From contig DATJFV010000046.1 in assembly GCA_035495435.1 (NCBI GenBank), forward strand, positions 24,072 through 88,071: a stretch of DNA of 64,000 nt, written 5' to 3'. How positions within the stretch are numbered: the first letter of the stretch is position 1; each line of letters starts with the position of its first letter. The stretch is from Pseudolysinimonas sp. Lineage in GTDB: Bacteria; Actinomycetota; Actinomycetes; Actinomycetales; Microbacteriaceae. The notes under the pieces are model-generated. The model did no database searches. It was not told where the DNA came from and saw only the letters and a program-made list of their open reading frames with translations. Below are positions 39,414-48,540 of the stretch, in pieces. Position numbers and translations under genes: made by a program.

Positions 39414-40406
39414 TCACACGCGTGGCGCACCGATGGCGGCCGCGATGCGCGCGACGAGCAGGTGCGGCTCGTTCGTCACATCATCGGCGTGCACCTGCAT
39501 CACCCGAAAGCCGGCGGCCTGAAATCGTTCGCGCCGCGAGATGTCCCGGCGCCAGGCACGGGGGTCGGTGCGGTGATGATCGCCCTCGTACTCGATGACC
39601 AGACGGCGGTCGCGATACAGCACGTCGGGATGGAGGCCGACGATCTCGGGGTTCAGTTCGGGCTCGGGCAGCCCGGCGCGCACCAGCAGTAAACGTAGGC
39701 GCGTCTCCATGGGCGACTCGGCGCCGACGCGCACCTCGCGCATCGCCCCGCGGGCCCGTGCGGCGCCACGTGCTCGCGCCGGGATCGCTGCGGCGAGGCC
39801 GTCGACGGATGCGATGGCGGGCTTCCGCGCGACCCGCCGCGGAGTGACGAGGTAGTCCCCCACCGCGACCAGGTCGTCGTGGTCGAGCATGGAGGCGAGC
39901 TGCACGAACACCTGTGCGGGCCCCACGACAGGGAGGGTGCCCAGCATGGTCACCTCGAGGGCGGAGGATCGATGCCCCACGACGCCCGCACGCACGGGGC
40001 GACTGGCGCCTCCCGAGACAGTGACGTGGATGAGATGCTCGAACCGGCGGGGCAGCGGGGCCCCCCAGAGCCACGCTGCGGTCGTGTGACTGAACGCCGC
40101 ACCTGCGGGGAGCACCAGCAGAAGCGCCTCGCAGCGCTGCCGCAGGCCGACCGCCTCCCCGCCGATGATGTGGACCCCGTGATACGGATGGGTGACATCT
40201 GCGGCACGAACCCGCGAACGGGGAATGCCTGCACCGCGCAGCTCGCGCGACGCGATCGGCAGCCCGATCTGCAGCGGGTCGACCGGCGTTCGACGGGTCA
40301 CCGGGCCAGCCTGGCTCGCCTGCGCTCTCGGCGCGCGGAGTCTCCACAGCATCCGCACCCAAAGCGCGTCGAGAGGCGGATTCCGGCGGGTAATCGGCCA
40401 TCGCAC
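39414..40406 (-). CDS. DUF559 (Vsr-like endonuclease fold) domain protein
   Basis: C-terminal ESPMETRLRLLLVRAGLPEPELN...IEYEGDHHRTD...RRERFQAAGFRV pattern. The N-terminal start is uncertain. Confidence 0.72.
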   Translation of the reverse strand: MRWPITRRNPPLDALWVRMLWRLRAPRAQASQAGPVTRRTPVDPLQIGLPIASRELRGAGIPRSRVRAADVTHPYHGVHIIGGEAVGLRQRCEALLLVLPAGAAFSHTTAAWLWGAPLPRRFEHLIHVTVSGGASRPVRAGVVGHRSSALEVTMLGTLPVVGPAQVFVQLASMLDHDDLVAVGDYLVTPRRVARKPAIASVDGLAAAIPARARGAARARGAMREVRVGAESPMETRLRLLLVRAGLPEPELNPEIVGLHPDVLYRDRRLVIEYEGDHHRTDPRAWRRDISRRERFQAAGFRVMQVHADDVTNEPHLLVARIAAAIGAPRV

Positions 40407-40457: not shown

Positions 40458-42218
40458 TTAGAGCGCGGAGAGCAGGTCCGCGGCGGGGAGCTCGCGGCGC
40501 TCGCCCGAGCGGCGGTCCCAGAGTTCGACGACGCCGTCCGCAGCACCTCGGCCCGCGATGACGATCGTCGGCACGCCGAGCAGTTCCGCGTCACCGAACT
40601 TGACGCCCGGAGACACCTTGGGCCGGTCGTCGAGCAGCACCTCCCGACCCGACGACTCGAGCGCCGCCGCCACCTGCTCGGCCAGCTCCAGGGCCGCTGC
40701 GTCCTTGCCCGTCGCGATCACGTGCACATCGAACGGTGCCACCTCGGCCGGCCAGATGAGGCCCCGCTCGTCGTTGTTCGCCTCCGCGATGACCGCCATG
40801 ATGCGCGTCACGCCGATCCCGTACGAGCCCATGGTGACGGTGACCAACTTGCCGTTCTCGTCGAGCACCTGCAGCCCCAGGGCGTCGGCGTACTTGCGGC
40901 CGAGCTGGAACACGTGCCCGATCTCCATGCCGCGGGCGAGCTCCACCGGGCCGGAGCCGTCGGGCGCCGGGTCACCGGCGCGCACCTCGGCGACCTCGGC
41001 GGTGCCGTCGGAGCCGAAGTCGCGCCCGGCCACCAGCCCGAAGACGTGCTTGCCGTCGGCGTTGGCGCCGGTGATCCAGCCCGAGCCGTCGGCGACGCGC
41101 GGGTCCAGCAGGTACCGGATGCCGGTCGCCGACTCCTCGCCCAGCACGGCGCCCTGGGGTGACCAGGGCCCGATGTAGCCCTTCACCAGCAGCGGATGCT
41201 TCTCGAAGTCGGTGTCGACGGCCGCCTCGACCTCGGCGGGGGCGAACTGCACCTCGGCGCGCTTCATGTCGACCTCGCGGTCACCGGGAATGCCGACGAC
41301 CACCACCTCGCGCGTGCCGTCGAGATGCGTCAGCGCGAGCACCACGTTCTTCAGGGTGTCGGCGGCGGTCCAGGCCCGCCCGTCGGGTCGGGGGTGCTTG
41401 GCGTTGGCGACCTCGACCAGGGTCGCGATCGTGGGAGTGCCGGGCGTGTCGAGCACCTCGGCGGGCGTCAGCTTCTCGTAGGAGCGCGGCTCGGCGGGCG
41501 GGGTGACGTACGCCTCGACGTTGGCTGCGTAGCCGCCGTCCGAGCGCACGAAGGTGTCCTCGCCGATCGGGGTGGGGTGCAGGAACTCCTCCGACCGCGA
41601 CCCGCCCATCGCACCGGCGTCGGCCTGCACGATGGCGTACTCGAGGCCGAGGCGCTGGAAGATGCGCTCGTAGGCGTCGCGGTGCTGCTGGTACGACACG
41701 TCGAGCCCGGCGTCGTCGATGTCGAACGAGTACGAGTCCTTCATCGAGAACTCGCGCCCGCGCAGCAGCCCGGCGCGGGGGCGGGCCTCGTCGCGGTACT
41801 TGTCCTGGATCTGGTAGATCGACAGCGGCAGGTCCTTGTACGAGGTGTACAGGTCTTTCACCGTGAGGGTGAACACCTCTTCGTGCGTGGGCGCGAGCAG
41901 GTAGTCGGCGCCCTTGCGGTCCTTCAGCCGGAAGATCCCGTCGCCGTATTCCTCCCAGCGGCCGGTCACCTCGTAGGGTTCGCGCGGCAGCAGCGCGGGG
42001 AAGTGCACCTCCTGCGCGCCGAAACGTTCGAGCTCTTCGCGGATCACCTTCTCGATGCGGCGCCGCACCCGCAGGCCGAGCGGCAGCCAGGCGAAGATCC
42101 CCGGCGCCTGGCGCCGGATGTATCCGGCGCGGATCAGCAGGCGGTGGCTGGCAACCTCCGCGTCGGCGGGGTCGTCGCGCAGAGTGCGCACGAACAGCTG
42201 GGTCATCCGGGTAGGCAC
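40458..42218 (-). CDS. proS: proline--tRNA ligase
   Basis: 586-aa class II aaRS with an editing domain, starting [22 protein letters not shown]. Confidence 0.96.
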
Positions 42219-42253
42219 GATGCCAGCCTAATGACGCGTTCCGGATGCGATGG

Positions 42254-44500
42254 TCACGCCGTCGGCGGAACGTACGCCGAGCGCAGCCGCTCCTCGGGCA
42301 CGAGCCACTCTTCGCCCTGCTCGCCGCGGATCACCCACTGCCCGCTGCGGGCGGTCGTGGTGCCCTCGAGCGTCTCGATCACCTCTCCCGCACGGGCGGG
42401 CCGGGCCTGCACCGAGCCGGTGCGTTCATAGCGTCCTGGCCGGCCGGTCGGGCGGTGCGTGGCCTCGAAGATCCCGGCGGCGACCGAGTGCGTCGACCCG
42501 CGCTCGTCAACGACCTCCCAGTCGCCGGGCGAGCCGTGCAGGGTCTCCCCGGATGCGGTGGTCCACGACCAGGCCTCGTCGCGTTTGCGGGCGGTCACCT
42601 CTCCGCGGCGGGCGAACGTGCGCCATTGCACGTCGTCGAACGACCGGTACCCAAGCGTGGACAGCAGTTCCAGGCTGGAGCGCACGCCGTCCCGGGTCTT
42701 GTCCCGTGCCGCCTCGTCCAGTCGCTCCCAGTCGCGCAGGTCGGGGTGTCGACGACGGCGGTCGTCGCGAGCCGCGCCGTGCCGCCAGCCGTGGGATTCG
42801 AGGTGCCGCCGCCACGATTCGTGTTCGAGCTGCGCCATCCGCTCCAACTGCGTCGCGGAGGGCATGCCCGCGCGATCAGCGCCGGCGCCCCAGCTGCGTC
42901 CGACCGCGATGGCCGAGCCGAGCGTCGCGAGCACCTGGCGCACGTTGGAGGCTCGGTAGAACGCGCCGAGCTGTTCCCAGGGGCGACGGGATGCGATGGC
43001 CGGGTCGGGGTGGGCGCGGCGGTAGCGCTCGTGGCCGAGTCGCGCGATCCGTTCCCAGTTGTCGATCGGGCGACCGTTGCCGGCGTCGAGGGTGGTGCCG
43101 AAGGCGCGGACGTGGGCGAGAAGCGGCTCGGCTCCGAGCCCCACGACCTCGGCGAACCGGGAGTAGACCGGCCAGTCCGGCTGCCCCGCCCCGAGGACGG
43201 CGGCGAGACGCTGGCCGTCGGCCCCGGGCTCGCCGGTGAACACCACAGCCGGATTCGACGCACCCTCGGCGGCCTCCTCGATCCCCGCTGCGGTCGGCGC
43301 TGCGGCTGTCACCGTGGCGCGGACGCCGCCGGTGTTGCCGTAGCGCACCTGCGAGAACTCGTGCTGTTCGAGGATGGCGACGGCGTCGGGGTCGATGACC
43401 ACCACCGGCGGCACCGGCGGCTCCCCCAGCACCTCGTGCTCGCGCCCCTGCTGCGCCAGTTCGCCGAGAATGGCGAAGGTCAGCCCCGAGCGTCCGGCCA
43501 GGATGACCCGGTCCGCGCCGACACCGAGCAGATCGTCGACGACCAGCCGTGCGGTCACCTCGTCGGCGCTGATCGTGTCGACCACCCAGTCCGCGGCGCG
43601 CACGAGGTAGCGGCGGCGCCAGTCCTCCGCCTGCCAGGCATCGTCGATGCGCACCAGCACACGCACCGGGCCGCCGGCCCTGCGGCCGGCGACGGCCCCT
43701 TCGATCGAGCGCACCAGCCGCTGCGCCGCCGTGCTGTCGGGTGAGAGTACGGCGAGTGAGCGCAGGGCGCTGCCGGCGGGTCCGCGCCGGATGAGGCCGC
43801 GCACGGTGGCCGTGTTGGCGGGATCTCCGGTGACGACGCGCCAGCCCGCCGCTCGTGCGCTGCGCACCCAGGCGGCCCCGACATCCGGAGTCAGCACCAC
43901 CCGCACCGTGCCCGCGGCGCCCACCGCCAGCGCCGGCAGCAGGCCCGCAGAACTGTCGTCGACCCCCACTGCCAGGGTCACCCGCGGAGCCAGCCGCACG
44001 AGCGCACGGTCGAGCTGCCCCCGCAGCAACACCGCCACCGCTCGGGTCGCGGCGACGAACAGCACGGTCAGCACCACGAGTCGCCCGAACTGGAGGGCGA
44101 GCGGCGGGTTGTCGGGGCATGTCACCCCGTCGAACATGCTGGTGTCGTAGCTGTTGAGGACGAACGCCAGCACCCGCTGCACGACCGAGAACCAGCGTGC
44201 CTCACCGACCGGCGGGCAGCTGGCGTAGGCGGCGACGGCGAGCACCACGGCGGAGACGGTTCCCGCGGCGAGGAACACCAGGGCGAACGACAGGGAACGG
44301 TGCCGGCTGGGCCATGCCCAGGCTCCGAAGGCCAGGAACCCCAGGATGAGGGGGATCGCGACCGGCTCCCAGGCGGTGGTGTCGTTCCAGCGCGAGAGCC
44401 ACCCGGGCAGCGGTACGAAGATCGCCAGCACGAGCAGGCCGACGGCGAGGATGTAGCCGGCGAGCGCGAGGCGCGCGGCGACGCGGGCGACGGCGCTCAT
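42254..44500 (-). CDS. multi-pass membrane protein with two Rossmann-like segments, a RyR-type domain and a beta-rich C-terminal module
   Basis: Start set at ATG 44500, with an ATGA overlap with the TIR gene stop; the track's additional 34 codons are Arg-rich. About 5 N-terminal TM segments. RVILAGRSGLTFAILGELAQQG. RyR-like MAQLEHESWRRHLESHGWRHG...HPDLRDWERLDEAARDKTRDGV...LGY. Confidence 0.8.
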   Translation of the reverse strand: MSAVARVAARLALAGYILAVGLLVLAIFVPLPGWLSRWNDTTAWEPVAIPLILGFLAFGAWAWPSRHRSLSFALVFLAAGTVSAVVLAVAAYASCPPVGEARWFSVVQRVLAFVLNSYDTSMFDGVTCPDNPPLALQFGRLVVLTVLFVAATRAVAVLLRGQLDRALVRLAPRVTLAVGVDDSSAGLLPALAVGAAGTVRVVLTPDVGAAWVRSARAAGWRVVTGDPANTATVRGLIRRGPAGSALRSLAVLSPDSTAAQRLVRSIEGAVAGRRAGGPVRVLVRIDDAWQAEDWRRRYLVRAADWVVDTISADEVTARLVVDDLLGVGADRVILAGRSGLTFAILGELAQQGREHEVLGEPPVPPVVVIDPDAVAILEQHEFSQVRYGNTGGVRATVTAAAPTAAGIEEAAEGASNPAVVFTGEPGADGQRLAAVLGAGQPDWPVYSRFAEVVGLGAEPLLAHVRAFGTTLDAGNGRPIDNWERIARLGHERYRRAHPDPAIASRRPWEQLGAFYRASNVRQVLATLGSAIAVGRSWGAGADRAGMPSATQLERMAQLEHESWRRHLESHGWRHGAARDDRRRRHPDLRDWERLDEAARDKTRDGVRSSLELLSTLGYRSFDDVQWRTFARRGEVTARKRDEAWSWTTASGETLHGSPGDWEVVDERGSTHSVAAGIFEATHRPTGRPGRYERTGSVQARPARAGEVIETLEGTTTARSGQWVIRGEQGEEWLVPEERLRSAYVPPTA

Positions 44501-47271
44501 CGGTCGCACCCCAGGTCGGCGGGGGGTGCGGTGCCGATCAGGGTCGACCATTCGTCCGCGGTCAGGTCTCGGCCGGCAACCGCGCACACGGCCGTGCGCC
44601 ACTCGGTGGGCACCAGGCTGAGTCGGCTCACGGTCGAGGGTCGCGGGGGCGCGGCGATCTCCTGGGTCGACAGGATGAGGGCAGAGCCGTCGGGCGAGAA
44701 GGCCGCGATGGTGAAGCGGTTCTCCTGTTGGGGCACGGCGATCCGGCCGAATACCGTTCCGCTGCGTGCGAGGTCGAGCAGCTGCAGCGTGCCGGTCGAG
44801 CCCCCGGTCGCCAGCAGCCGGCCGTCGGCGCTCAGGGCGGGCGGCGGGTTCTGGTCGGCATCGGCGGGACGTGAGGACACCTCTGCGCCCGACGAGTCGA
44901 GCACCGTGTCGGTGCCGTCGGTGAACACGTGCAGGCGGGAGTCGCCGTCATAGGCCGCGGCGCTCGGGTCGGCGCTTTCGTAGAGGACCTCGCCGGAGGC
45001 GACGTCGACGACGCGCAGGCCGATGTCGGCGAACAGCGCGAACGCGGTCGACTGATCCGGTGCGATGCCGTAGATCAGCGGCAGCGGCCCGGGGAAGCGG
45101 TCGGCGAACGGTTTCGACGTCGTCTCGGCGCCATCGCGCTTCACGGTCATGACGGAGCCGTCGTCGGCGAGGACCGTGGCCGCGCCGGTCGAGGCGTCAG
45201 CGCGCACGCTGATCACGACTACCCCGTCGTCCAGCGGGATCGGGAGGGAGTCGGCGACCTCGAACGTCGTCGCGTCCGCCAGGTACAGCAGGTGATCGGT
45301 GGACGAGGCGACGGCGAACGTGGTGTCGTCCCACCATGCGGCCGCGGTCAGACCGAACGCGCCATCCGGGTCGATCGGCAGACCCTCCCCCGTGCTGAGG
45401 TCGACGGCCACCGGAGACCCCCCGGAGATCGCCTGCACGAGCACGCGGTCGCCGCTGTCGTTCACCGACATCACCTGCGGTCCGCAGGCCGTGCAGCCCT
45501 CGGGTACGGGCACCGCGAACTGCGTCGTGATCCGTCCCGCCTGCGACAGGTCCCAGACCAAGGCGAAGTCGCCGGTGCCGTTGACCAAAGTGTCACCGCG
45601 GAAGGTCAGCGTCTCGGCGTTCACGTTCCCGGCCCCCAGCAGCGCGATCGGCGGTTCCGGCAATGCATCGGGTGCACGCGCGGTGGACACATAGATCGCG
45701 CCCGTGTCCATCACGGCCAGCCGGGAGCCGGTGTCGTCGAGCGCCACGTCCAGCGACCCGGCGAGCTGGCTGGTGGCGACGCGATCCGCGGGATCTCCCT
45801 CGACGGTCCCGCCGTCGGACACCGAGCCGACGACGTTCCAGATCGAGTAGTTGACGGTCTTGTCCAGGGACCCGACGAGTGCGTTTCCGTCGCGCGACAC
45901 TCCGAAGACATTCGCGGCGATCCCCAGCGTGTGCTGGCCCGAGGCGATGACCGAGGCGTCGTCGAGCGAGATGCGCGCCCAGAATCCGGCCTGGTTGAAG
46001 GTGGTCAGCTCGTGATCGCCGAACCCGATGCGGCCGCCGAACGGCACGGTGCCGACGGACGTGTACACGCTCTCGCCCTGGTCCACCCCGCGGCGGAGGA
46101 GGGTCAGCCACGTGGATCGGTTCGAGACCGCCAGGTAGCTCCCGTCGGCCGAGAGCGCGACGAGGGTCGCCGGCGTCTCGTCCGCGGGAGGCGGCACGGT
46201 CGCTTCAGTGTCTCCGGCCGGGGTGACGATGCGCACCGCGTCGTCGCCGGCGACCGCGGCGACATCGGCACCGTCATCCGACACCGCGATCCAGCCGACG
46301 GGAGCGTTGAGGTCGGCCAGGACGGTGCGCTCGGCCCCGTCCCAGCGCGAGACGGCCCCGGAGGCGTCCCCGGTGAAGACGGTGCCGTCGGCGGCGACGG
46401 CGGTCGCGTTGACGCGCGCACCGACCGCGAGGGTCCTGACCAGTTGCGGACTGGTGGTCGCCAGCTGGAACAGCGCCGCCCGGGTCTGTGCGTCGTCGTT
46501 CATCCGCTGGGCCTCGACCGCGAGCAGCGATGCGGTCTGCAGGTCGGTGGCACTCAGCGTGATCGCTTGTGCCGCCAGCTGCCGGGCCAACGCGATGCGC
46601 GCCTGCTCCGCGGCTGCGTTGCCGTTCACCACAGCGATGACGGTGGCGACGAGGGATGCCACGAGTAGCGCCGAGAGCGCGATCACCCCGCCACGCGCGA
46701 GACGCAGTGCGCGGCGGCGCTGCTGCACGTTCTCGCCGATCAGCTCGTCGCGCTCCATGCCGCGGATGGCGGACGCGAGGTCGGCCACGCGCTCGTTGAA
46801 CCGGGGGTCTGCGGTGCCGAGCGACCCCTCCGCCTCGAACCAGGGCATCTCGACCCAGCGCGGCTCCTCGGGGAACGCCTTCGAGAGCGCCCGGTTGACC
46901 GCCGTCGACCGCTTCCAGTCGAAGTCGTTCGTCTTCGGGTCCCAGTACATCTCGCCCTCGTCGAGGACGAGCAGGATGCGGTCAGCCGACTTGTGCTCGA
47001 GCCACCAGGTGATCTCGGTGGTCACGTACTGCGACGCGGCGGACTTCGGGCTGCACAGCAGGATGAACCAGTCAGCCTCGGTCAGCCCGCGCTCGATGTT
47101 CGACCAGAGGCCCGTGTTGGCCGACATTGTCGCGTCGTCGAGGAACACCCGCGACGAGCGCAGTCGGTACCAGGGCTTCGCGAACCGCTCGATGCCGTTG
47201 CGCAGGGCGACCGCGAGCCCGCTCGACGCCGAGCGCGAGTAGGAGATGAAGGCGTCGAACCGGGCTGCCAC
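44497..47271 (-). CDS. TIR-domain protein with a single TM helix and a large C-terminal beta-propeller (WD40-like) region
   Basis: GTG start. TIR motifs FDAFISYSRS and DWFILLCSPKSAASQYVTTEITWW. TM helix GVIALSALLVASLVATVIAVV preceded by QQRRRALRLAR. More than 10 blade-like DG repeats. C-terminal CAVAGRDLTADEW...C motif. Confidence 0.85.
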   Translation of the reverse strand: MAARFDAFISYSRSASSGLAVALRNGIERFAKPWYRLRSSRVFLDDATMSANTGLWSNIERGLTEADWFILLCSPKSAASQYVTTEITWWLEHKSADRILLVLDEGEMYWDPKTNDFDWKRSTAVNRALSKAFPEEPRWVEMPWFEAEGSLGTADPRFNERVADLASAIRGMERDELIGENVQQRRRALRLARGGVIALSALLVASLVATVIAVVNGNAAAEQARIALARQLAAQAITLSATDLQTASLLAVEAQRMNDDAQTRAALFQLATTSPQLVRTLAVGARVNATAVAADGTVFTGDASGAVSRWDGAERTVLADLNAPVGWIAVSDDGADVAAVAGDDAVRIVTPAGDTEATVPPPADETPATLVALSADGSYLAVSNRSTWLTLLRRGVDQGESVYTSVGTVPFGGRIGFGDHELTTFNQAGFWARISLDDASVIASGQHTLGIAANVFGVSRDGNALVGSLDKTVNYSIWNVVGSVSDGGTVEGDPADRVATSQLAGSLDVALDDTGSRLAVMDTGAIYVSTARAPDALPEPPIALLGAGNVNAETLTFRGDTLVNGTGDFALVWDLSQAGRITTQFAVPVPEGCTACGPQVMSVNDSGDRVLVQAISGGSPVAVDLSTGEGLPIDPDGAFGLTAAAWWDDTTFAVASSTDHLLYLADATTFEVADSLPIPLDDGVVVISVRADASTGAATVLADDGSVMTVKRDGAETTSKPFADRFPGPLPLIYGIAPDQSTAFALFADIGLRVVDVASGEVLYESADPSAAAYDGDSRLHVFTDGTDTVLDSSGAEVSSRPADADQNPPPALSADGRLLATGGSTGTLQLLDLARSGTVFGRIAVPQQENRFTIAAFSPDGSALILSTQEIAAPPRPSTVSRLSLVPTEWRTAVCAVAGRDLTADEWSTLIGTAPPADLGCDR

Positions 47272-47291
47272 GCCCCGAGACTAGCGGGGCG
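47271..47291 (-). promoter_or_regulatory. stem-loop abutting the TIR start codon, with a -10-like TAGTCT in its loop (possible leaderless promoter)
   Basis: CGCCCCG/CGGGGCG 7-bp stem. On the minus strand TAGTCT (47283-47278) ends 6 nt before the GTG. No Shine-Dalgarno sequence is visible. Confidence 0.3.
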
Positions 47292-47296
47292 GGTTT

Positions 47297-47393
47297 CGAT
47301 ACGCGGCCTGCGGCCGCTCCTCAACCAGCGATACGGCGGCCTGCGGCCGGTACTCAACCAGCGATACGCGGCCTGCGGCCGCTACTCAACCAG
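47297..47393 (-). repeat. three tandem 32-33-bp copies of the ispG 3' end plus a GC hairpin
   Basis: Units at 47297-47328, 47329-47361 and 47362-47393. Minus-strand unit CTGGTTGAGTAGCGGCCGCAGGCCGCGTATCG. The third unit contains the real ispG stop (47386-47388). Each unit carries a GCGGCC-gca-GGCCGC hairpin (CCGGCC-gca-GGCCGC, 5 bp, in the middle copy). Confidence 0.85.
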
Positions 47394-48540
47394 CGGTGAC
47401 GACCTCGGGGCTGCCCAGCTCGCCGGGAGGCATCTCGGCCGCGAGACGGTTCGCCTCCTCGATGAGGGTCTGCACGATCTCCGACTCGGGGACCGTCTTG
47501 ATCACCTCACCCTTGACGAAGATCTGGCCCTTGCCGTTGCCCGAGGCGACGCCGAGGTCGGCCTCACGGGCCTCCCCCGGACCGTTGACGACGCAGCCCA
47601 TCACCGCGACGCGCAGCGGCACCGTCATGCCCTGCAGTCCCTCGGTGACGTCGTTGGCGAGCGTGTAGACATCGACCTGCGCCCGTCCGCACGAGGGGCA
47701 CGACACGATCTCGAGCTTGCGCTCGCGCAGGTTCAGCGACTGCAGGATCTGCAGGCCCACCTTCACCTCCTGCGCCGGCGGGGCGGACAGCGAGACGCGG
47801 ATGGTGTCGCCGATGCCCTCCGAGAGCAGGATGCCGAACGCGGTCGCGCTCTTGATCGTTCCCTGGAACTCGGGGCCGGCCTCCGTCACACCGAGGTGCA
47901 GCGGCCAGTCGCCGCGCTCAGCCAGCATGCGGTACGCCTTGACCATCACGACGGGATCGTTGTGCTTGACCGAGATCTTGAAGTCGTGGAAGTCGTGCTC
48001 CTCGAACAGCGACGCCTCCCAGACGGCGCTCTCGACGAGAGCCTCGGCGGTCGCCTTGCCGTACTTCTCCAGCAGGCGCGGGTCGAGCGAGCCCGCGTTG
48101 ACGCCGATCCGGATGCTGACCCCGGCATCCTTGGCGGCCTTCGCGATCGCGCCCACCTGGTCGTCGAACTTGCGGATGTTGCCGGGATTCACCCGCACGG
48201 CGCCGCAGCCGGCGTCGATGGCCTGGAACACGTACTTCGGCTGGAAGTGGATGTCGGCAATGACCGGGATCTGCGACTTCTTGGCGATGATGTGCAGCAC
48301 GTCGGCGTCGTCCTGCGACGGCACGGCCACACGCACGATGTCGCACCCCGATGCGGTGAGCTCGGCGATCTGCTGCAGCGTCGCGTTGATGTTCGTCGTC
48401 GGGGTGGTGCACATCGACTGCACGCTGACCGGGGCGTCGCCCCCGACCAGCACCTTGCCGACCTTGATCTGGCGGCTCTTGCGACGGGGTGCGAGGACTT
48501 CGGGGGCCGGTTTCGGCATCCCGATGTTGACGGCTGGCAT
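47386..48540 (-). CDS. ispG: 4-hydroxy-3-methylbut-2-en-1-yl diphosphate synthase
   Basis: I checked the track translation codon by codon against the DNA. Motifs SMCTTPT and CPSCGR. Confidence 0.97.

What the first reader, a model, noticed from the sequence alone, without database searches (positions are those of the whole stretch)
44497..47271. TIR protein with receptor-like topology: cytosolic N-terminal TIR, one TM helix, predicted extracytoplasmic beta-propeller(s)
SEEN: there is no signal peptide. The TIR domain spans about aa 4-140 (nt 46852-47262). A strongly basic stretch (QQRRRALRLAR) lies immediately before the only TM helix (aa 193-215, nt 46627-46695). The segment after the helix is much less basic. 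By the positive-inside rule this gives an N-in / C-out orientation. The C-terminal 700 aa contain more than 10 repeats of the D-G-(S/T)-x-hydrophobic blade type, enough for two propellers. Four Cys lie in the outside portion (CTAC; VCAVAGR...LGCDR). INFERENCE: a surface sensor wired directly to a cytosolic TIR enzyme would be a bacterial analogue of Toll-like receptor logic. It could sense an extracellular or envelope cue such as phage adsorption or cell-wall damage, rather than a cytosolic phage protein. The same C-terminal CxxAGRxLTxxEW motif also occurs at the end of cytosolic actinobacterial WD40 proteins, so the topology needs testing.
Basis: partly seen in the sequence, partly recalled or inferred. 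Interest (0 to 1): 0.7.

Follow-up and report, generated by a model that had tools for sequence, protein, structure and literature searches.

The report
Membrane TIR sensor with RyR-domain partner
An actinobacterial gene encodes a TIR (NAD-cleaving immune-type) enzyme predicted to sit inside the cell, tethered by one membrane helix to two beta-propellers predicted to lie outside, and it is translationally coupled to a membrane protein whose RyR domain is of the kind recently shown to bind TIR-made cyclic ADP-ribose signals, which points to a possible outside-in immune or stress pathway not described before.

Summary
ORF 44497-47271(-) encodes a 924-aa protein with no signal peptide. It has an N-terminal TIR domain with an invariant catalytic-position Glu86, a basic stretch, one strongly hydrophobic helix (aa 194-215) and a helical stalk. 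These are followed by about 14 blades (two 7-bladed WD40-type propellers) and a Cys-stapled C-terminal cap.

The helix is present in 111 of 111 full-length homologues. The N-terminal flank is never the less basic one. Cys residues after the helix occur in conserved pairs. Streptomyces and Nocardia proteins with the same C-terminal cap motif carry the same helix behind an nSTAND1 NTPase. N-in/C-out is therefore the best-supported prediction, but it is untested.

The TIR stop codon overlaps (ATGA) the start of a 748-aa protein with four TM helices, Rossmann/RCK-like domains and an RyR domain. That protein family sits next to three unrelated TIR architectures. Relatives with TrkA_N plus RyR domains flank other TIR-TM-WD40 genes. 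Two 2026 preprints show that RyR domains bind 2'/3'cADPR.

Best reading: a Thoeris-like module with a transmembrane sensor and an RyR-gated, channel-like effector. It is a new variant of a known kind. All evidence is computational. The cue that is sensed is unknown.

The parts
44497..47271 (-). TIR-TM-double-propeller gene (924 aa)
   Evidence: ORF with GC3 0.91. 442 homologue clusters. AF2 pLDDT 88.5.
46747..47262 (-). TIR domain, aa 4-175 (predicted cytoplasmic)
   Evidence: Pfam TIR_2 30.6 bits against a cut-off of 28. The family profile hits TcpB, TLR2, AtTIR, PdTIR, SARM1/TIR-1 and AbTIR. AF2 shows an alpha/beta fold.
47014..47016 (-). Glu86 codon, the catalytic-position Glu of the TIR
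   Evidence: Invariant in 47 of 47 sequences and 15 of 15. Aligned to the conserved alphaC Glu of TcpB (4lzp), TLR2, AtTIR and PdTIR.
46693..46725 (-). Basic juxtamembrane stretch QQRRRALRLAR (aa 183-193)
   Evidence: Family mean is 5.1 K+R in the 15 residues before the helix, against 2.7 after it.
46627..46692 (-). Single predicted transmembrane helix (aa 194-215)
   Evidence: KD19 of 2.73, and the only hydrophobic peak in the protein. Present in 111 of 111 homologues. Unusually well conserved, at 0.63 column identity.
46447..46626 (-). Helical stalk/linker (aa 216-275), shared with nSTAND1-TM-WD40 proteins
   Evidence: AF2 helices 200-239, 244-257 and 261-272. tblastn hits to Streptomyces/Nocardia proteins, analysed.
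45502..46446 (-). Beta-propeller A (aa 276-590), predicted extracytoplasmic
   Evidence: AF2 strands. Foldseek matches double WD40 propellers. Part of the more variable, propeller portion of the protein (0.40).
44617..45501 (-). Beta-propeller B (aa 591-885), containing the CTAC pair (nt 45484-45495)
   Evidence: Conservation 0.36. C593 and C596 are kept or lost together: CCCC in 39 sequences, --CC in 8.
44500..44616 (-). C-terminal helical cap with the universal Cys pair C896/C922 and the AGRDLT..EW motif
   Evidence: C896 and C922 are invariant. The cap motif recurs across the family and in the nSTAND1 chassis proteins.
44497..44500 (-). ATGA overlap: the TIR stop codon (TGA) overlaps the ATG of the partner gene
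   Evidence: Read directly from the sequence. A similar short overlap of the two genes is seen in L001 and L092 (4 nt) and L085 (13 nt).
42254..44500 (-). Partner gene: 748-aa membrane protein with an RyR domain
   Evidence: AF2 pLDDT 84.9.
43991..44500 (-). Partner TM module (aa 1-170): four TM helices plus a short pore-helix-like helix (aa 102-114). Invariant C95 and C128 lie on the predicted outer face.
   Evidence: The loop charges fit an N-in/C-in topology.
43151..43990 (-). Partner: two Rossmann/RCK-like alpha/beta domains (aa 171-450)
   Evidence: AF2. Weak Foldseek match to the RCK K+ channel MthK, 6u68, E 4e-4. Relatives in L040 and L072 carry a Pfam TrkA_N domain.
42650..43060 (-). 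Partner RyR (Repeat12-like) tandem domain (aa 481-617), with H560-E-S-W563, H585, K601 and T602
   Evidence: Pfam RyR 43.7 bits against a cut-off of 27.4. phmmer to RyR R12 structures at E 1.5e-18, with residue alignment. Foldseek 6uhi TMt 0.63.
42275..42646 (-). Partner C-terminal duplicated beta domain (aa 619-742; weak PGDYG similarity)
47297..47395 (.). 3.1 tandem copies of a 32-nt unit with a GC-rich palindrome, in the ispG-TIR spacer. Possibly a terminator or REP-like element. Whether it belongs to the system is uncertain.

Best explanation
The gene encodes a single-pass type II membrane protein. An enzymatically competent TIR domain sits on the cytoplasmic face. One conserved TM helix follows, and then a helical stalk carries two variable 7-bladed WD40-type propellers and a disulfide-stapled cap on the outer face of the membrane.

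The protein belongs to a large actinobacterial family. Its 'N-terminal cytoplasmic head - TM - stalk - propellers - cap' chassis is also used by nSTAND1 NTPases.

In this genome it forms a translationally coupled two-gene module with a protein made of four TM helices, RCK-like domains and an RyR domain.

Proposed mechanism. A cue at the envelope or outside the cell binds the propellers. The cue is unknown, and candidates include phage particles, wall fragments or envelope damage. Binding clusters or re-orients the TM helices. The juxtamembrane TIR domains then assemble and convert NAD+ into a cADPR-type nucleotide. The cytosolic RyR domain of the partner binds that nucleotide through H560/W563/H585. 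It probably does not hydrolyse it, because the RyDEP catalytic Asp position holds a Thr. Binding gates the partner's channel-like membrane module, which changes ion flux or membrane potential and leads to growth arrest, abortive infection or a stress response.

Shown by computation: the ORF, the domains, the conserved helix and its charge bias, the invariant Glu, the double propeller, the gene overlap, and the recurrent TIR-RyR neighbourhood.

Inferred: the topology, the enzymatic product, RyR-ligand binding, channel function, the nature of the cue, and an immune role.
For: Topology
- One hydrophobic helix is present in 111 of 111 homologues (KD 2.08-3.15, 19-25 aa).
- The N-terminal flank has more K+R in 104 of 111, equal in 7, and fewer in 0.
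- No signal peptide is possible.
- Cys after the helix is even in number in 108 of 111, against 52 even and 59 odd before it. C593/C596 are lost only together and C896/C922 are universal.
- The ectodomain is acidic and Lys-poor.
- The same helix, linker and cap follow nSTAND1 NTPases in four Streptomyces/Nocardia proteins. Those N-terminal heads need cytoplasmic NTP.

TIR competence
- TIR_2 scores above the Pfam cut-off.
- E86 is invariant and aligned to the conserved Glu of TcpB, TLR2, AtTIR and PdTIR.

Sensor character
- The propellers are the variable part (0.36-0.40) while TIR, TM, stalk and cap are conserved (0.59-0.66).

Partner
- ATGA overlap in the window.
- The same pair occurs at 35-68% TIR identity in L004, L005 and L010 (same strand) and in L016 and L033 (convergent), and in L085, L092, L094, L106 and L117.
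- At least 18 of the 41 partner clusters share a contig length with a TIR-family hit. Identities to the window co-vary (r = 0.74, n = 13).
- The partner family also sits beside TIR-NB-ARC-HTH STAND proteins (L084, L091, L093, L107) and beside a short TIR (L086). These TIR heads are not BLAST-similar to the window's TIR.
- TrkA_N+RyR proteins flank TIR-TM-WD40 genes in L040 and L072. A related protein does so in L013, where Pfam finds only a weak TrkA_N match (E 0.005) and no RyR, and the RyR region was seen only by tblastn.
- The RyR domain matches R12 structures at E 1.5e-18, with H-x-x-W and His(+25) conserved.
- Phage RyR domains bind 2'/3'cADPR at nanomolar affinity (PMC13232231; doi 10.64898/2026.06.04.730250).
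- The partner's loop charges place the RyR domain in the cytoplasm.
Against: - No experiment of any kind supports this. Topology, NADase or cyclase activity, ligand binding and channel activity are all predictions.
- The positive-inside difference is moderate. The outer flank still carries 2-3 Arg.
- In classical STAND proteins the sensor repeats contact the NTPase in the same compartment. A membrane between them, as the shared chassis implies, is unprecedented and could mean the helix plays another role.
- Most family members (about 60 of 69 species-level loci) have no RyR neighbour within 8 kb.
- A soil clade of partner homologues has no adjacent TIR. So has L083, whose contig nevertheless carries a TIR-TM-WD40 gene about 90 kb away.
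- The window partner itself has no Pfam TrkA_N hit and no K+ selectivity-filter motif. It has no sequence match to any solved channel, and only a weak fold match to MthK.
- The Asp that contacts the ligand in RyDEP and RyR Tad is a Thr here.
- The gene sits among housekeeping genes (ispG, proS). It is syntenic within genera (Lentzea, Micropruina), which is unlike typical mobile defence islands.
- PADLOC and NCBIfam give only weak ThsB-like hits for the TIR protein and nothing for the partner.
Confidence: 0.55

Rival explanations
1. This is a self-contained membrane-anchored NADase. The TIR-TM-propeller protein is both sensor and effector and kills or arrests the cell by depleting NAD+. The RyR-domain neighbour is not the output. 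It is a buffer or regulator that binds stray product, or an unrelated membrane protein that happens to share the locus.
For: About 87% of species-level loci have no RyR neighbour within 8 kb and no other conserved partner, so the protein can apparently work alone. RyR-domain proteins characterised so far are sponges or hydrolases that switch signalling off. Partner homologues exist without an adjacent TIR.
Against: The partner is a 748-aa, four-TM, multi-domain protein, not a small sponge. Its family pairs with three unrelated TIR architectures, often by overlap or a gap of 14 nt or less. RCK+RyR variants also sit next to family members. One genome has both genes 90 kb apart, so loci that look 'stand-alone' may still have an unlinked partner.
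Confidence: 0.2
2. This is a housekeeping-type envelope-stress or developmental signalling receptor rather than anti-phage immunity. It would be an actinobacterial analogue of receptor Ser/Thr kinases such as PknD (kinase - TM - beta-propeller), with NAD+-derived nucleotides as the second messenger controlling ion homeostasis through the RCK/RyR protein.
For: The gene lies between ispG and proS, with no mobile-element or defence genes around it. It occupies the same site in related Microbacteriaceae. It is syntenic within Lentzea (next to his genes) and within Micropruina. The topology matches actinobacterial receptor kinases (established knowledge, recalled, not tested here). There are no phage homologues.
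Against: The distribution is patchy: 279 species representatives, all Actinomycetota, out of the 185,579 species in the genome collection. The propellers are variable. Paralogues lie adjacent in L075. The chassis is shared with nSTAND1 conflict-system NTPases carrying trypsin-like heads. The partner also pairs with TIR-STAND proteins. These features are typical of immune or conflict systems.
Confidence: 0.2
3. The hydrophobic helix does not span the membrane, or only tethers the protein peripherally, and the propellers are cytoplasmic. They would then sense a cytosolic phage protein, as in Apaf-1-like or Avs-type STAND sensors and in ThsB.
For: All characterised bacterial TIR and STAND sensors detect cytosolic ligands (literature). 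The same helix occurs between nSTAND1 NTPases and their WD40 sensors, where intramolecular contact in one compartment would be expected. The closest structural matches are cytosolic WD40 proteins. AF2 confidence is low at aa 180-201.
Against: The segment is a textbook signal-anchor. It has 19-25 uncharged residues, KD up to 3.15, an Arg-rich N-terminal flank, and is present in 111 of 111 homologues. A single such segment cannot leave both large domains on the same side of the membrane. The paired Cys pattern appears only after the helix.
Confidence: 0.12

Closest known systems
Thoeris anti-phage systems (ThsB TIR sensor plus ThsA-type effector)
   Same: A TIR protein with the catalytic-position Glu is encoded next to a separate effector that carries a domain able to bind TIR-made ADPR-type nucleotides. 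One effector family is combined with several different TIR sensors.
   Different: The sensor here is predicted to be a single-pass membrane protein with extracytoplasmic propellers, whereas known ThsB proteins sense cytosolic phage proteins. The effector's ligand domain is RyR/R12 rather than SLOG, Macro or a caspase-associated domain. Its output is a TM/RCK channel-like module. PADLOC and NCBIfam do not recognise the pair. Most family members lack the partner.
Animal Toll-like receptors
   Same: The logic is a repeat-built ectodomain, a single TM helix and a cytosolic TIR.
   Different: The orientation is reversed: the TIR is N-terminal and the protein is type II. The ectodomain is a WD40 double propeller rather than an LRR solenoid. 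The TIR is predicted to be enzymatic rather than a scaffold. There is no evidence of common descent of the whole architecture.
Actinobacterial receptor Ser/Thr kinases, e.g. M. tuberculosis PknD (kinase - TM - NHL beta-propeller). Recalled from established knowledge, not tested here.
   Same: An N-terminal cytoplasmic enzyme, one TM helix and a C-terminal extracytoplasmic beta-propeller sensor, in the same phylum.
   Different: The enzyme is a TIR rather than a kinase. There are two 7-bladed WD40-type propellers rather than one 6-bladed NHL propeller.
nSTAND1 NTPase - TM - WD40 proteins of Streptomyces and Nocardia (Pfam PF20703 heads)
   Same: They share an Arg-rich stretch, a single hydrophobic helix, the 'QR..A..Q...SRQLAAQ...DPDLA.LLAV.AYR' stalk, WD40 propellers and a C-terminal Cys...Cys cap.
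   Different: The N-terminal head is an NTPase, sometimes with trypsin-like or HTH modules, instead of a TIR. Their repeats are canonical WD40 repeats. In the window protein the repeats are too diverged for the Pfam WD40 model.
Phage RyR-domain anti-Thoeris proteins RyDEP and RyR Tad (2026 preprints)
   Same: A PF02026 R12-like domain with the H-x-x-W motif and the His 25 residues downstream, both of which contact cADPR-type ligands.
   Different: The window protein is host-encoded and is a 748-aa membrane protein. It has a tandem intramolecular repeat rather than forming a homodimer. The ligand-contacting and catalytic Asp (RyDEP D117, Tad D171) is a Thr (T602). No phage homologue was detectable by tblastn.
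RCK-gated channels (MthK, TrkA/Ktr-type)
   Same: The layout is TM helix, short helix, loop, long TM helix, then Rossmann domains. There is a weak Foldseek match to MthK. Sister proteins next to family TIR genes carry TrkA_N.
   Different: There is no TVGYG-type filter. The window partner has no Pfam TrkA_N or Ion_trans hit. It has two extra N-terminal TM helices. Its C-terminal ligand domain is RyR.

Membership tests
TIR domain (enzymatic TIR NADase/cyclase class) | Sequence match to a curated TIR model above its threshold | tested here: met
   Pfam TIR_2 scores 30.6 bits against a cut-off of 28, which is a narrow pass. The family profile hits TcpB, TLR2, AtTIR, PdTIR, TIR-1/SARM1 and AbTIR in the PDB at E 0.004-1.4.
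TIR domain (enzymatic TIR NADase/cyclase class) | Conserved catalytic Glu at the start of alphaC | tested here: met
   E86 is invariant in 47 of 47 and 15 of 15 sequences. It is aligned to the Glu of TcpB '..PARE', TLR2 '..KYE', AtTIR '..LDE' and PdTIR '..QKE'.
TIR domain (enzymatic TIR NADase/cyclase class) | NAD+ cleavage or cyclisation activity | not testable with these tools
   This needs biochemistry.
Single-pass type II (N-in/C-out) membrane protein | Exactly one hydrophobic segment long enough to span the bilayer, and no cleavable signal peptide | tested here: met
   One peak, KD19 2.73, aa 194-215. A strong hydrophobic helix sits at the same position in 111 of 111 homologues, although a minority of them show one or two further hydrophobic peaks above threshold. 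An upstream in-frame stop excludes an N-terminal extension.
Single-pass type II (N-in/C-out) membrane protein | Positive-inside charge bias with the N-terminal flank more basic | tested here: met
   More basic in 104 of 111, equal in 7, less basic in 0. Mean difference is 2.4 K+R over 15 residues.
Single-pass type II (N-in/C-out) membrane protein | Experimentally determined location of the C-terminal domain | not testable with these tools
   No dedicated topology predictor (DeepTMHMM, TOPCONS) and no wet-lab assay was available. Indirect support comes from Cys pairing.
WD40 beta-propeller | Match to the WD40 repeat model | tested here: not met
   PF00400 gives E 0.73 and 11 bits against a cut-off of 27. 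Only weak, sub-threshold hits to propeller families were found.
WD40 beta-propeller | Seven-bladed, four-stranded propeller fold, here in tandem | tested here: met
   AF2 gives about 55 strands, which is about 14 blades. Foldseek matches 2ymu at E 3.5e-26, plus Apaf-1, Aip1 and Utp21 tandem propellers. Family members in L062, L068 and L075 have canonical WD40 repeats in the same frame.
Thoeris | ThsB-type TIR protein | tested here: inconclusive
   PADLOC ThsB E 1e-4. Pfam ThsB_TIR E 0.013, below its cut-off. NCBIfam ThcB4 13 bits against a cut-off of 220.
Thoeris | Adjacent ThsA-type effector with a known signal-binding domain (SLOG, Macro and similar) | tested here: not met
   The partner has no PADLOC hit and no meaningful NCBIfam hit. 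It carries an RyR domain instead.
Thoeris | Protection against phage through a TIR-made signal | not testable with these tools
   This needs phage challenge and metabolite analysis.
RyR/R12 domain (PF02026) cADPR-binding proteins | PF02026 match above its threshold and an R12 fold | tested here: met
   43.7 bits against a cut-off of 27.4. phmmer to RyR R12 structures at E 1.5e-18. Foldseek 6uhi TMt 0.63.
RyR/R12 domain (PF02026) cADPR-binding proteins | Ligand contacts H-x-x-W and a His about 25 residues later | tested here: met
   H560-E-S-W563 and H585 are present. W563 and H585 are invariant and H560 at least 90% conserved in the close partner family (24 sequences). In the wider family (50 sequences) H560 and W563 remain at least 90% conserved and H585 is kept in the consensus (HP). 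The residue roles come from PMC13232231 and doi 10.64898/2026.06.04.730250.
RyR/R12 domain (PF02026) cADPR-binding proteins | Asp 17 residues after the second His (RyDEP D117 catalytic acid; Tad D171) | tested here: not met
   The position holds T602, and the family consensus is K-T-R. This predicts no glycosidase activity. The effect on binding is unknown.
RCK-gated ion channel | TrkA_N/RCK domain recognised by sequence | tested here: not met
   The window partner has no TrkA_N hit at E up to 10. The feature is met only in the sister proteins of L040 (4e-16) and L072 (2e-14).
RCK-gated ion channel | Pore module (outer helix, pore helix, filter, inner helix) | tested here: inconclusive
   The helix layout fits and there is a weak MthK fold match at E 4e-4, TMt 0.35. 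There is no selectivity-filter motif and no sequence match to solved channels.

The most novel reading that the evidence does not exclude
This would be a complete outside-in nucleotide-signalling pathway in bacteria. An extracytoplasmic WD40 double propeller detects an envelope or external cue. That activates a juxtamembrane TIR enzyme across one TM helix. The resulting cADPR-type messenger directly gates an RyR-domain, RCK-type membrane channel.

If true, it would be the first surface-sensing TIR immune receptor in prokaryotes. It would also be a prokaryotic counterpart, and possibly an antecedent, of cADPR-to-ryanodine-receptor signalling. The same TM chassis would imply that a whole class of nSTAND1 'NLR-like' proteins are transmembrane receptors as well.
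Probability: 0.3. Interest if true: 0.9.

Novelty: new variant of a known kind. Interest (0 to 1): 0.75.

Why it matters
Bacterial TIR and STAND immune sensors characterised so far detect ligands in the cytoplasm, after phage DNA is already in. A TIR enzyme coupled through the membrane to an external propeller would mean bacteria can trigger NAD+-based signalling from the cell surface.

The coupling to a host-encoded, membrane-embedded RyR-domain protein matters for three reasons.

- It offers a candidate new effector class for TIR signalling.
- It suggests where phage RyR-domain sponges and hydrolases (RyDEP, RyR Tad) may have come from.
- It gives a simple, genetically tractable system for asking whether R12/RyR domains transduce cADPR binding into channel gating. 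For animal ryanodine receptors that question has long been open.

The shared chassis with nSTAND1 NTPases extends the question to many Streptomyces 'NLR-like' proteins. All of this can be tested with standard fusions, NADase assays and ligand-binding assays.

Tried and rejected
1. A search with the 56-aa C-terminal cap of a canonical family member against the 5.8-billion-protein database failed, because no candidate passed the word prefilter. I answered the question with tblastn against plasmids instead.

2. Sequence profile of the partner's N-terminal half against the PDB: only one insignificant hit (E 0.21), so nothing useful. The channel idea therefore rests on the weak fold match and on the TrkA_N-bearing sister proteins.

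3. tblastn of both proteins against 50,697 phage genomes: no match. Neither gene is phage-borne, and no close phage RyR relative was found.

4. The wide partner alignment A5 was too diverse for the locus finder, so I used A3.

5. I expected the partner to be obligately linked to TIR genes. That is rejected. A soil clade (L096-L104) and L083 have no adjacent TIR; the soil-clade loci are flanked by MFS and OmdA genes.

6. I considered that the four ectodomain Cys form one Cys4 zinc site. This is disfavoured, because 8 of 47 members keep only the C-terminal pair.

7. I considered a Thoeris membership call. It is not supported by PADLOC or NCBIfam.

8. Promoter and terminator consensus scans of 42100-47500 found nothing. 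This is uninformative in a 70% GC actinobacterium.

9. The Aravind-group conflict-system papers, the prokaryotic WD40 survey and the 2026 STAND survey do not describe a TM helix between TIR or STAND heads and WD40 sensors.

Full report
**1. The observation**

The minus-strand ORF 44497-47271 is real: 924 aa, GTG start, GC3 0.91 in about 70% GC DNA. An in-frame TAG four codons upstream rules out an N-terminal extension. The protein begins directly with the TIR betaA strand (FDAFISYS), so there is no signal peptide.

Pfam TIR_2 narrowly passes its gathering score, at 30.6 bits against 28.

The basic stretch QQRRRALRLAR (aa 183-193) precedes the only hydrophobic segment of the protein. That segment is aa 194-215, with a Kyte-Doolittle 19-mer mean of 2.73.

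The part after the helix has net charge -49 and 0.4% Lys. It holds four Cys, at 593, 596, 896 and 922.

The strict motif occurs 4 times and a loose version 14 times. The inference from it is correct.

- An AlphaFold2 model built on 47 homologues has mean pLDDT 88.5 and pTM 0.73.
- It shows a TIR-like alpha/beta domain (aa 5-170) and a low-confidence juxtamembrane segment (aa 180-201).
- A long helix runs from aa 200 to 239 and a small helical stalk extends to aa 272.
- About 55 beta-strands follow (aa 277-885, about 14 blades), then a two-helix cap.
- Foldseek's best PDB matches are tandem 7+7 WD40 propellers: 2ymu from Nostoc at E 3.5e-26, plus Apaf-1, Aip1 and Utp21.

**2. The family**

The protein has 442 homologue clusters at E below 1e-5. 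They are full-length down to about 30% identity. Relatives occur in 279 species-representative genomes, all of them Actinomycetota. These include Microbacteriaceae, Propionibacteriales, Pseudonocardiales such as Lentzea, Streptosporangiales, Mycobacteriales, Acidimicrobiales and Solirubrobacterales. Public annotation says only 'TIR domain-containing protein' or 'WD40 repeat protein'.

An alignment of 47 diverse members gives these invariant residues:

- F8, S10 and Y11;
- the motif around A31 to Y35 (FAKPWY; A31 and P33 invariant, the rest at least 90% conserved);
- S80, V83, E86 and W90;
- E136-P-R-W139;
- C896 and C922.

A profile of the TIR region hits TcpB/BtpA, TLR2, AtTIR, PdTIR, TIR-1/SARM1 and AbTIR in the PDB. 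In the printed alignments (TcpB, TLR2, AtTIR, PdTIR) E86 falls on the conserved alphaC Glu, which is the catalytic position of TIR NADases.

**3. Topology**

No dedicated predictor was available, so I used comparative tests.

- (a) All 111 full-length homologues have a strong hydrophobic helix 19-25 residues long (KD 2.08-3.15) at about the same position.
- (b) The 15 residues before it hold more K+R than the 15 after it in 104 of 111. The counts are equal in 7 and never reversed, with means of 5.1 and 2.7.
- (c) The Cys count after the helix is even in 108 of 111, and 93 have exactly four. Before the helix the split is 52 even and 59 odd. In the 47-sequence alignment the pattern is CCCC in 39 and --CC in 8. 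The CxxC pair is therefore lost as a unit while C896/C922 is universal. This fits two separate disulfides in an oxidising compartment better than one Cys4 metal site. Shared ancestry inflates these counts, so I treat this as supporting evidence only.
tblastn with the TM and stalk region of a canonical family member found Streptomyces, Nocardia and related genes annotated as trypsin-like, HTH or WD40 proteins. The four I examined each have one Arg-flanked hydrophobic helix (KD 2.07-3.03) directly before the homologous stalk. Each also has WD40 propellers and a Cys...Cys cap. In all four, an nSTAND1 NTPase lies N-terminal to the helix, at E 1e-81 to 1e-130.

The chassis is therefore [cytoplasm-dependent head: TIR or NTPase] - TM - stalk - propellers - cap.

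A single membrane-spanning segment puts the two large parts on opposite sides. Heads that need NAD+ or NTP belong inside. I put N-in/C-out at roughly 0.75-0.8.

The main reservation is that a membrane between a STAND NTPase and its sensor repeats is unprecedented.

Region-wise conservation fits a sensor with a variable outer face. TIR is 0.64, the juxtamembrane segment 0.66, the TM helix 0.63, the stalk 0.63 and the cap 0.59. Propeller A is 0.40 and propeller B 0.36. That the TM helix is as conserved as the enzyme suggests it does more than anchor the protein.

**4. Genomic context and the missed partner**

The gene lies in a run of minus-strand housekeeping genes in this order: rseP-like M50 protease, SDR, alpha/beta-hydrolases, ispG, TIR gene, RyR-domain gene, proS, (DUF559-like ORF), nusA, infB.

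The TIR stop codon overlaps the ATG of the next gene (cgATGAgc, 44497-44500). That gene (42254-44500) encodes a 748-aa protein. Its AF2 model has pLDDT 84.9 and shows:

- four TM helices plus a short pore-helix-like helix (aa 1-170);
- two Rossmann-like domains (aa 174-447);
- a tandem RyR/R12 domain (aa 481-615);
- a duplicated beta domain (aa 619-742).

Loop charges predict N-in/C-in, which places the RyR domain in the cytoplasm.

A systematic census of 69 species-level loci found only genus-level synteny, for example Lentzea beside his genes and a Micropruina block. The one exception was a neighbour family that recurs across distant lineages: the RyR protein.

- Full-length homologues lie immediately downstream in L004, L005 and L010, and convergent in L016 and L033. 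TIR identity to the window in these loci is only 35-68%.
- Seen from the partner's side, the family is tiny in the 5.8-billion-protein set, at 41 clusters. At least 18 of these share a contig length with TIR-family hits.

Direct look-ups and metagenome loci gave the following.

| Neighbour of the partner gene | Loci |
|---|---|
| TIR-TM-WD40 | L085, L092, L094, L106, L117 |
| TIR-NB-ARC/AAA_16-HTH_77 STAND protein, divergently transcribed | L084, L091, L093, L107 |
| 228-aa short TIR | L086 |
| No adjacent TIR | L083, and the soil clade L096-L104 (where the flanks could be read, MFS and OmdA genes) |

In the genome that contains L083, the TIR-TM-WD40 gene lies about 90 kb away on the same contig.

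The STAND-type and short TIR heads show no significant BLAST similarity to the window's TIR.

Different RyR proteins lie beside TIR-TM-WD40 genes in L013, L040 and L072. They look like 2-TM channel proteins. L040 and L072 carry Pfam TrkA_N (RCK) at 4e-16 and 2e-14 and RyR at 2.5e-9 and 7.6e-12. For L013, Pfam finds only a weak TrkA_N match (E 0.005) and a weak PGDYG match; its RyR region was detected only by tblastn with the window partner.

An exhaustive HMMER search with the partner's TM and Rossmann half finds 244 clusters. Nearly all are 740-830 aa. A 50-sequence alignment down to 24% identity retains the two outer-face Cys, the Rossmann core and the key ligand-position residues of the RyR domain.

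**5. Why the RyR domain matters**

Two 2026 preprints report that phage RyR/R12-domain proteins act on TIR products.

- RyDEP hydrolyses 2'/3'cADPR. H75 and D117 form the catalytic dyad, W78 stacks on adenine and H100 contacts the phosphates. Six of eight tested homologues bind these signals (PMC13232231).
- RyR Tad sequesters 1''-3' gcADPR with a Kd of 43 nM. Its binding residues are H129/W132, K147/H154 and K170/D171 (doi 10.64898/2026.06.04.730250).

The window partner's RyR domain aligns to RyR R12 structures at E 1.5e-18. It keeps H560-x-x-W563, the His 25 residues later (H585) and a Lys at the Tad K170 position. The Asp position holds Thr (T602, family consensus K-T-R). This predicts a binder rather than a glycosidase.

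Neither preprint describes host membrane RyR proteins paired with TIR genes. PADLOC and NCBIfam do not recognise the partner.

**6. Mechanism**

The best-supported reading is a Thoeris-like two-component module with two unusual parts. One is a transmembrane TIR sensor whose variable propellers face outward. The other is an effector that reads the TIR product through a cytosolic RyR domain and acts through a channel-like membrane/RCK module.

- Steps shown by computation: domains, conserved residues, helix and charge bias, gene coupling, and recurrent neighbourhood.
- Steps inferred: the actual topology, the TIR product, RyR-ligand binding, channel activity, the external cue, and an immune (rather than physiological) role.

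The channel reading for the window partner rests on three things: helix layout, a weak MthK fold match (E 4e-4, TMt 0.35), and the TrkA_N-bearing sister proteins. Pfam finds no TrkA_N in the window partner and a sequence profile finds no solved channel.

Rival readings are listed separately with what would refute each. They are a stand-alone NADase with the partner acting as buffer, a housekeeping envelope-stress receptor, and cytosolic propellers.

The housekeeping neighbourhood and within-genus synteny are the main points in favour of a non-immune role. The patchy distribution, variable propellers, adjacent paralogues (L075) and kinship with conflict-system nSTAND1 and TIR-STAND proteins favour an immune or conflict role.

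**7. Novelty**

TIR-WD40 combinations in bacteria, and TIR-to-effector signalling (Thoeris), are known. Three things were not described in any source I could search:

- (i) the conserved membrane helix that would put the WD40 sensor outside the cell;
- (ii) its sharing with nSTAND1 NTPases;
- (iii) a host-encoded TM-RCK-RyR protein family genomically coupled to several TIR architectures.

I classify the finding as a new variant of a known kind. Interest is high (0.75), and the evidence is entirely computational.

Noticed in passing
window 47297-47395: There are 3.1 tandem copies of a 32-nt unit in the ispG-TIR spacer, each containing the GC-rich palindrome GCGGCCTGCGGCCGC. The element is unique within the window (0 expected by chance) and absent from the 9-nt spacer of the closest homologous locus, L001. 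It could be a stacked terminator or a REP-like insertion.
   Followed up: partly
window 39414-40406 (-): An ORF with weak DUF559 / MTES_1575 restriction-endonuclease-like similarity lies between proS and nusA, a position where a related locus (L085) has nothing. It did not pass my GC3 coding filter.
   Followed up: no
L075 5143-7873 (-) and 7941-10745 (+): Two paralogous TIR-TM-WD40 genes lie back to back and are transcribed divergently. Both have canonical WD40 repeats and the Cys cap.
   Followed up: partly
L072 5569-7932: The TrkA_N+RyR protein next to a TIR-TM-WD40 gene has an extra C-terminal domain of about 190 aa (…GVTGHRVL…VAVWDGEASQGRGGTADVV…). By eye it resembles SLOG/LOG-type nucleotide-binding domains. 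Pfam gives no hit.
   Followed up: no
L001 13142-18537; L094 6512-9691: In relatives, a MoxR-DUF58-VWA gene cluster (Bat-like; in L001 it also includes a TPR protein) sits between the RyR partner and proS. It is absent from the window, so the ispG-proS interval behaves as a variable insertion site.
   Followed up: no
L084 1-3870; L093 1-2855: A very large protein (about 1,360-1,380 aa) with no Pfam hit is encoded just beyond the TIR-STAND gene of the TIR-STAND + RyR-partner pair in both loci, on the opposite strand to it. It could be a third component.
   Followed up: no
L096-L104 (metagenome loci): A soil/rhizosphere clade of partner homologues (about 52% identity) has no adjacent TIR gene. 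Where the flanks could be read they show MFS_3 transporters and DUF1905/OmdA genes. A close relative in L086 has a short TIR gene close to the corresponding OmdA gene.
   Followed up: partly
L087 2362-6777, L088 2905-6252, L089 2587-6576, L090 2839-6528: Streptomyces/Nocardia plasmid-borne nSTAND1 NTPase-WD40 proteins (1,115-1,471 aa) all have a single predicted TM helix between the NTPase and the WD40 sensor. This implies that a class of bacterial 'NLR-like' proteins may be transmembrane receptors.
   Followed up: partly
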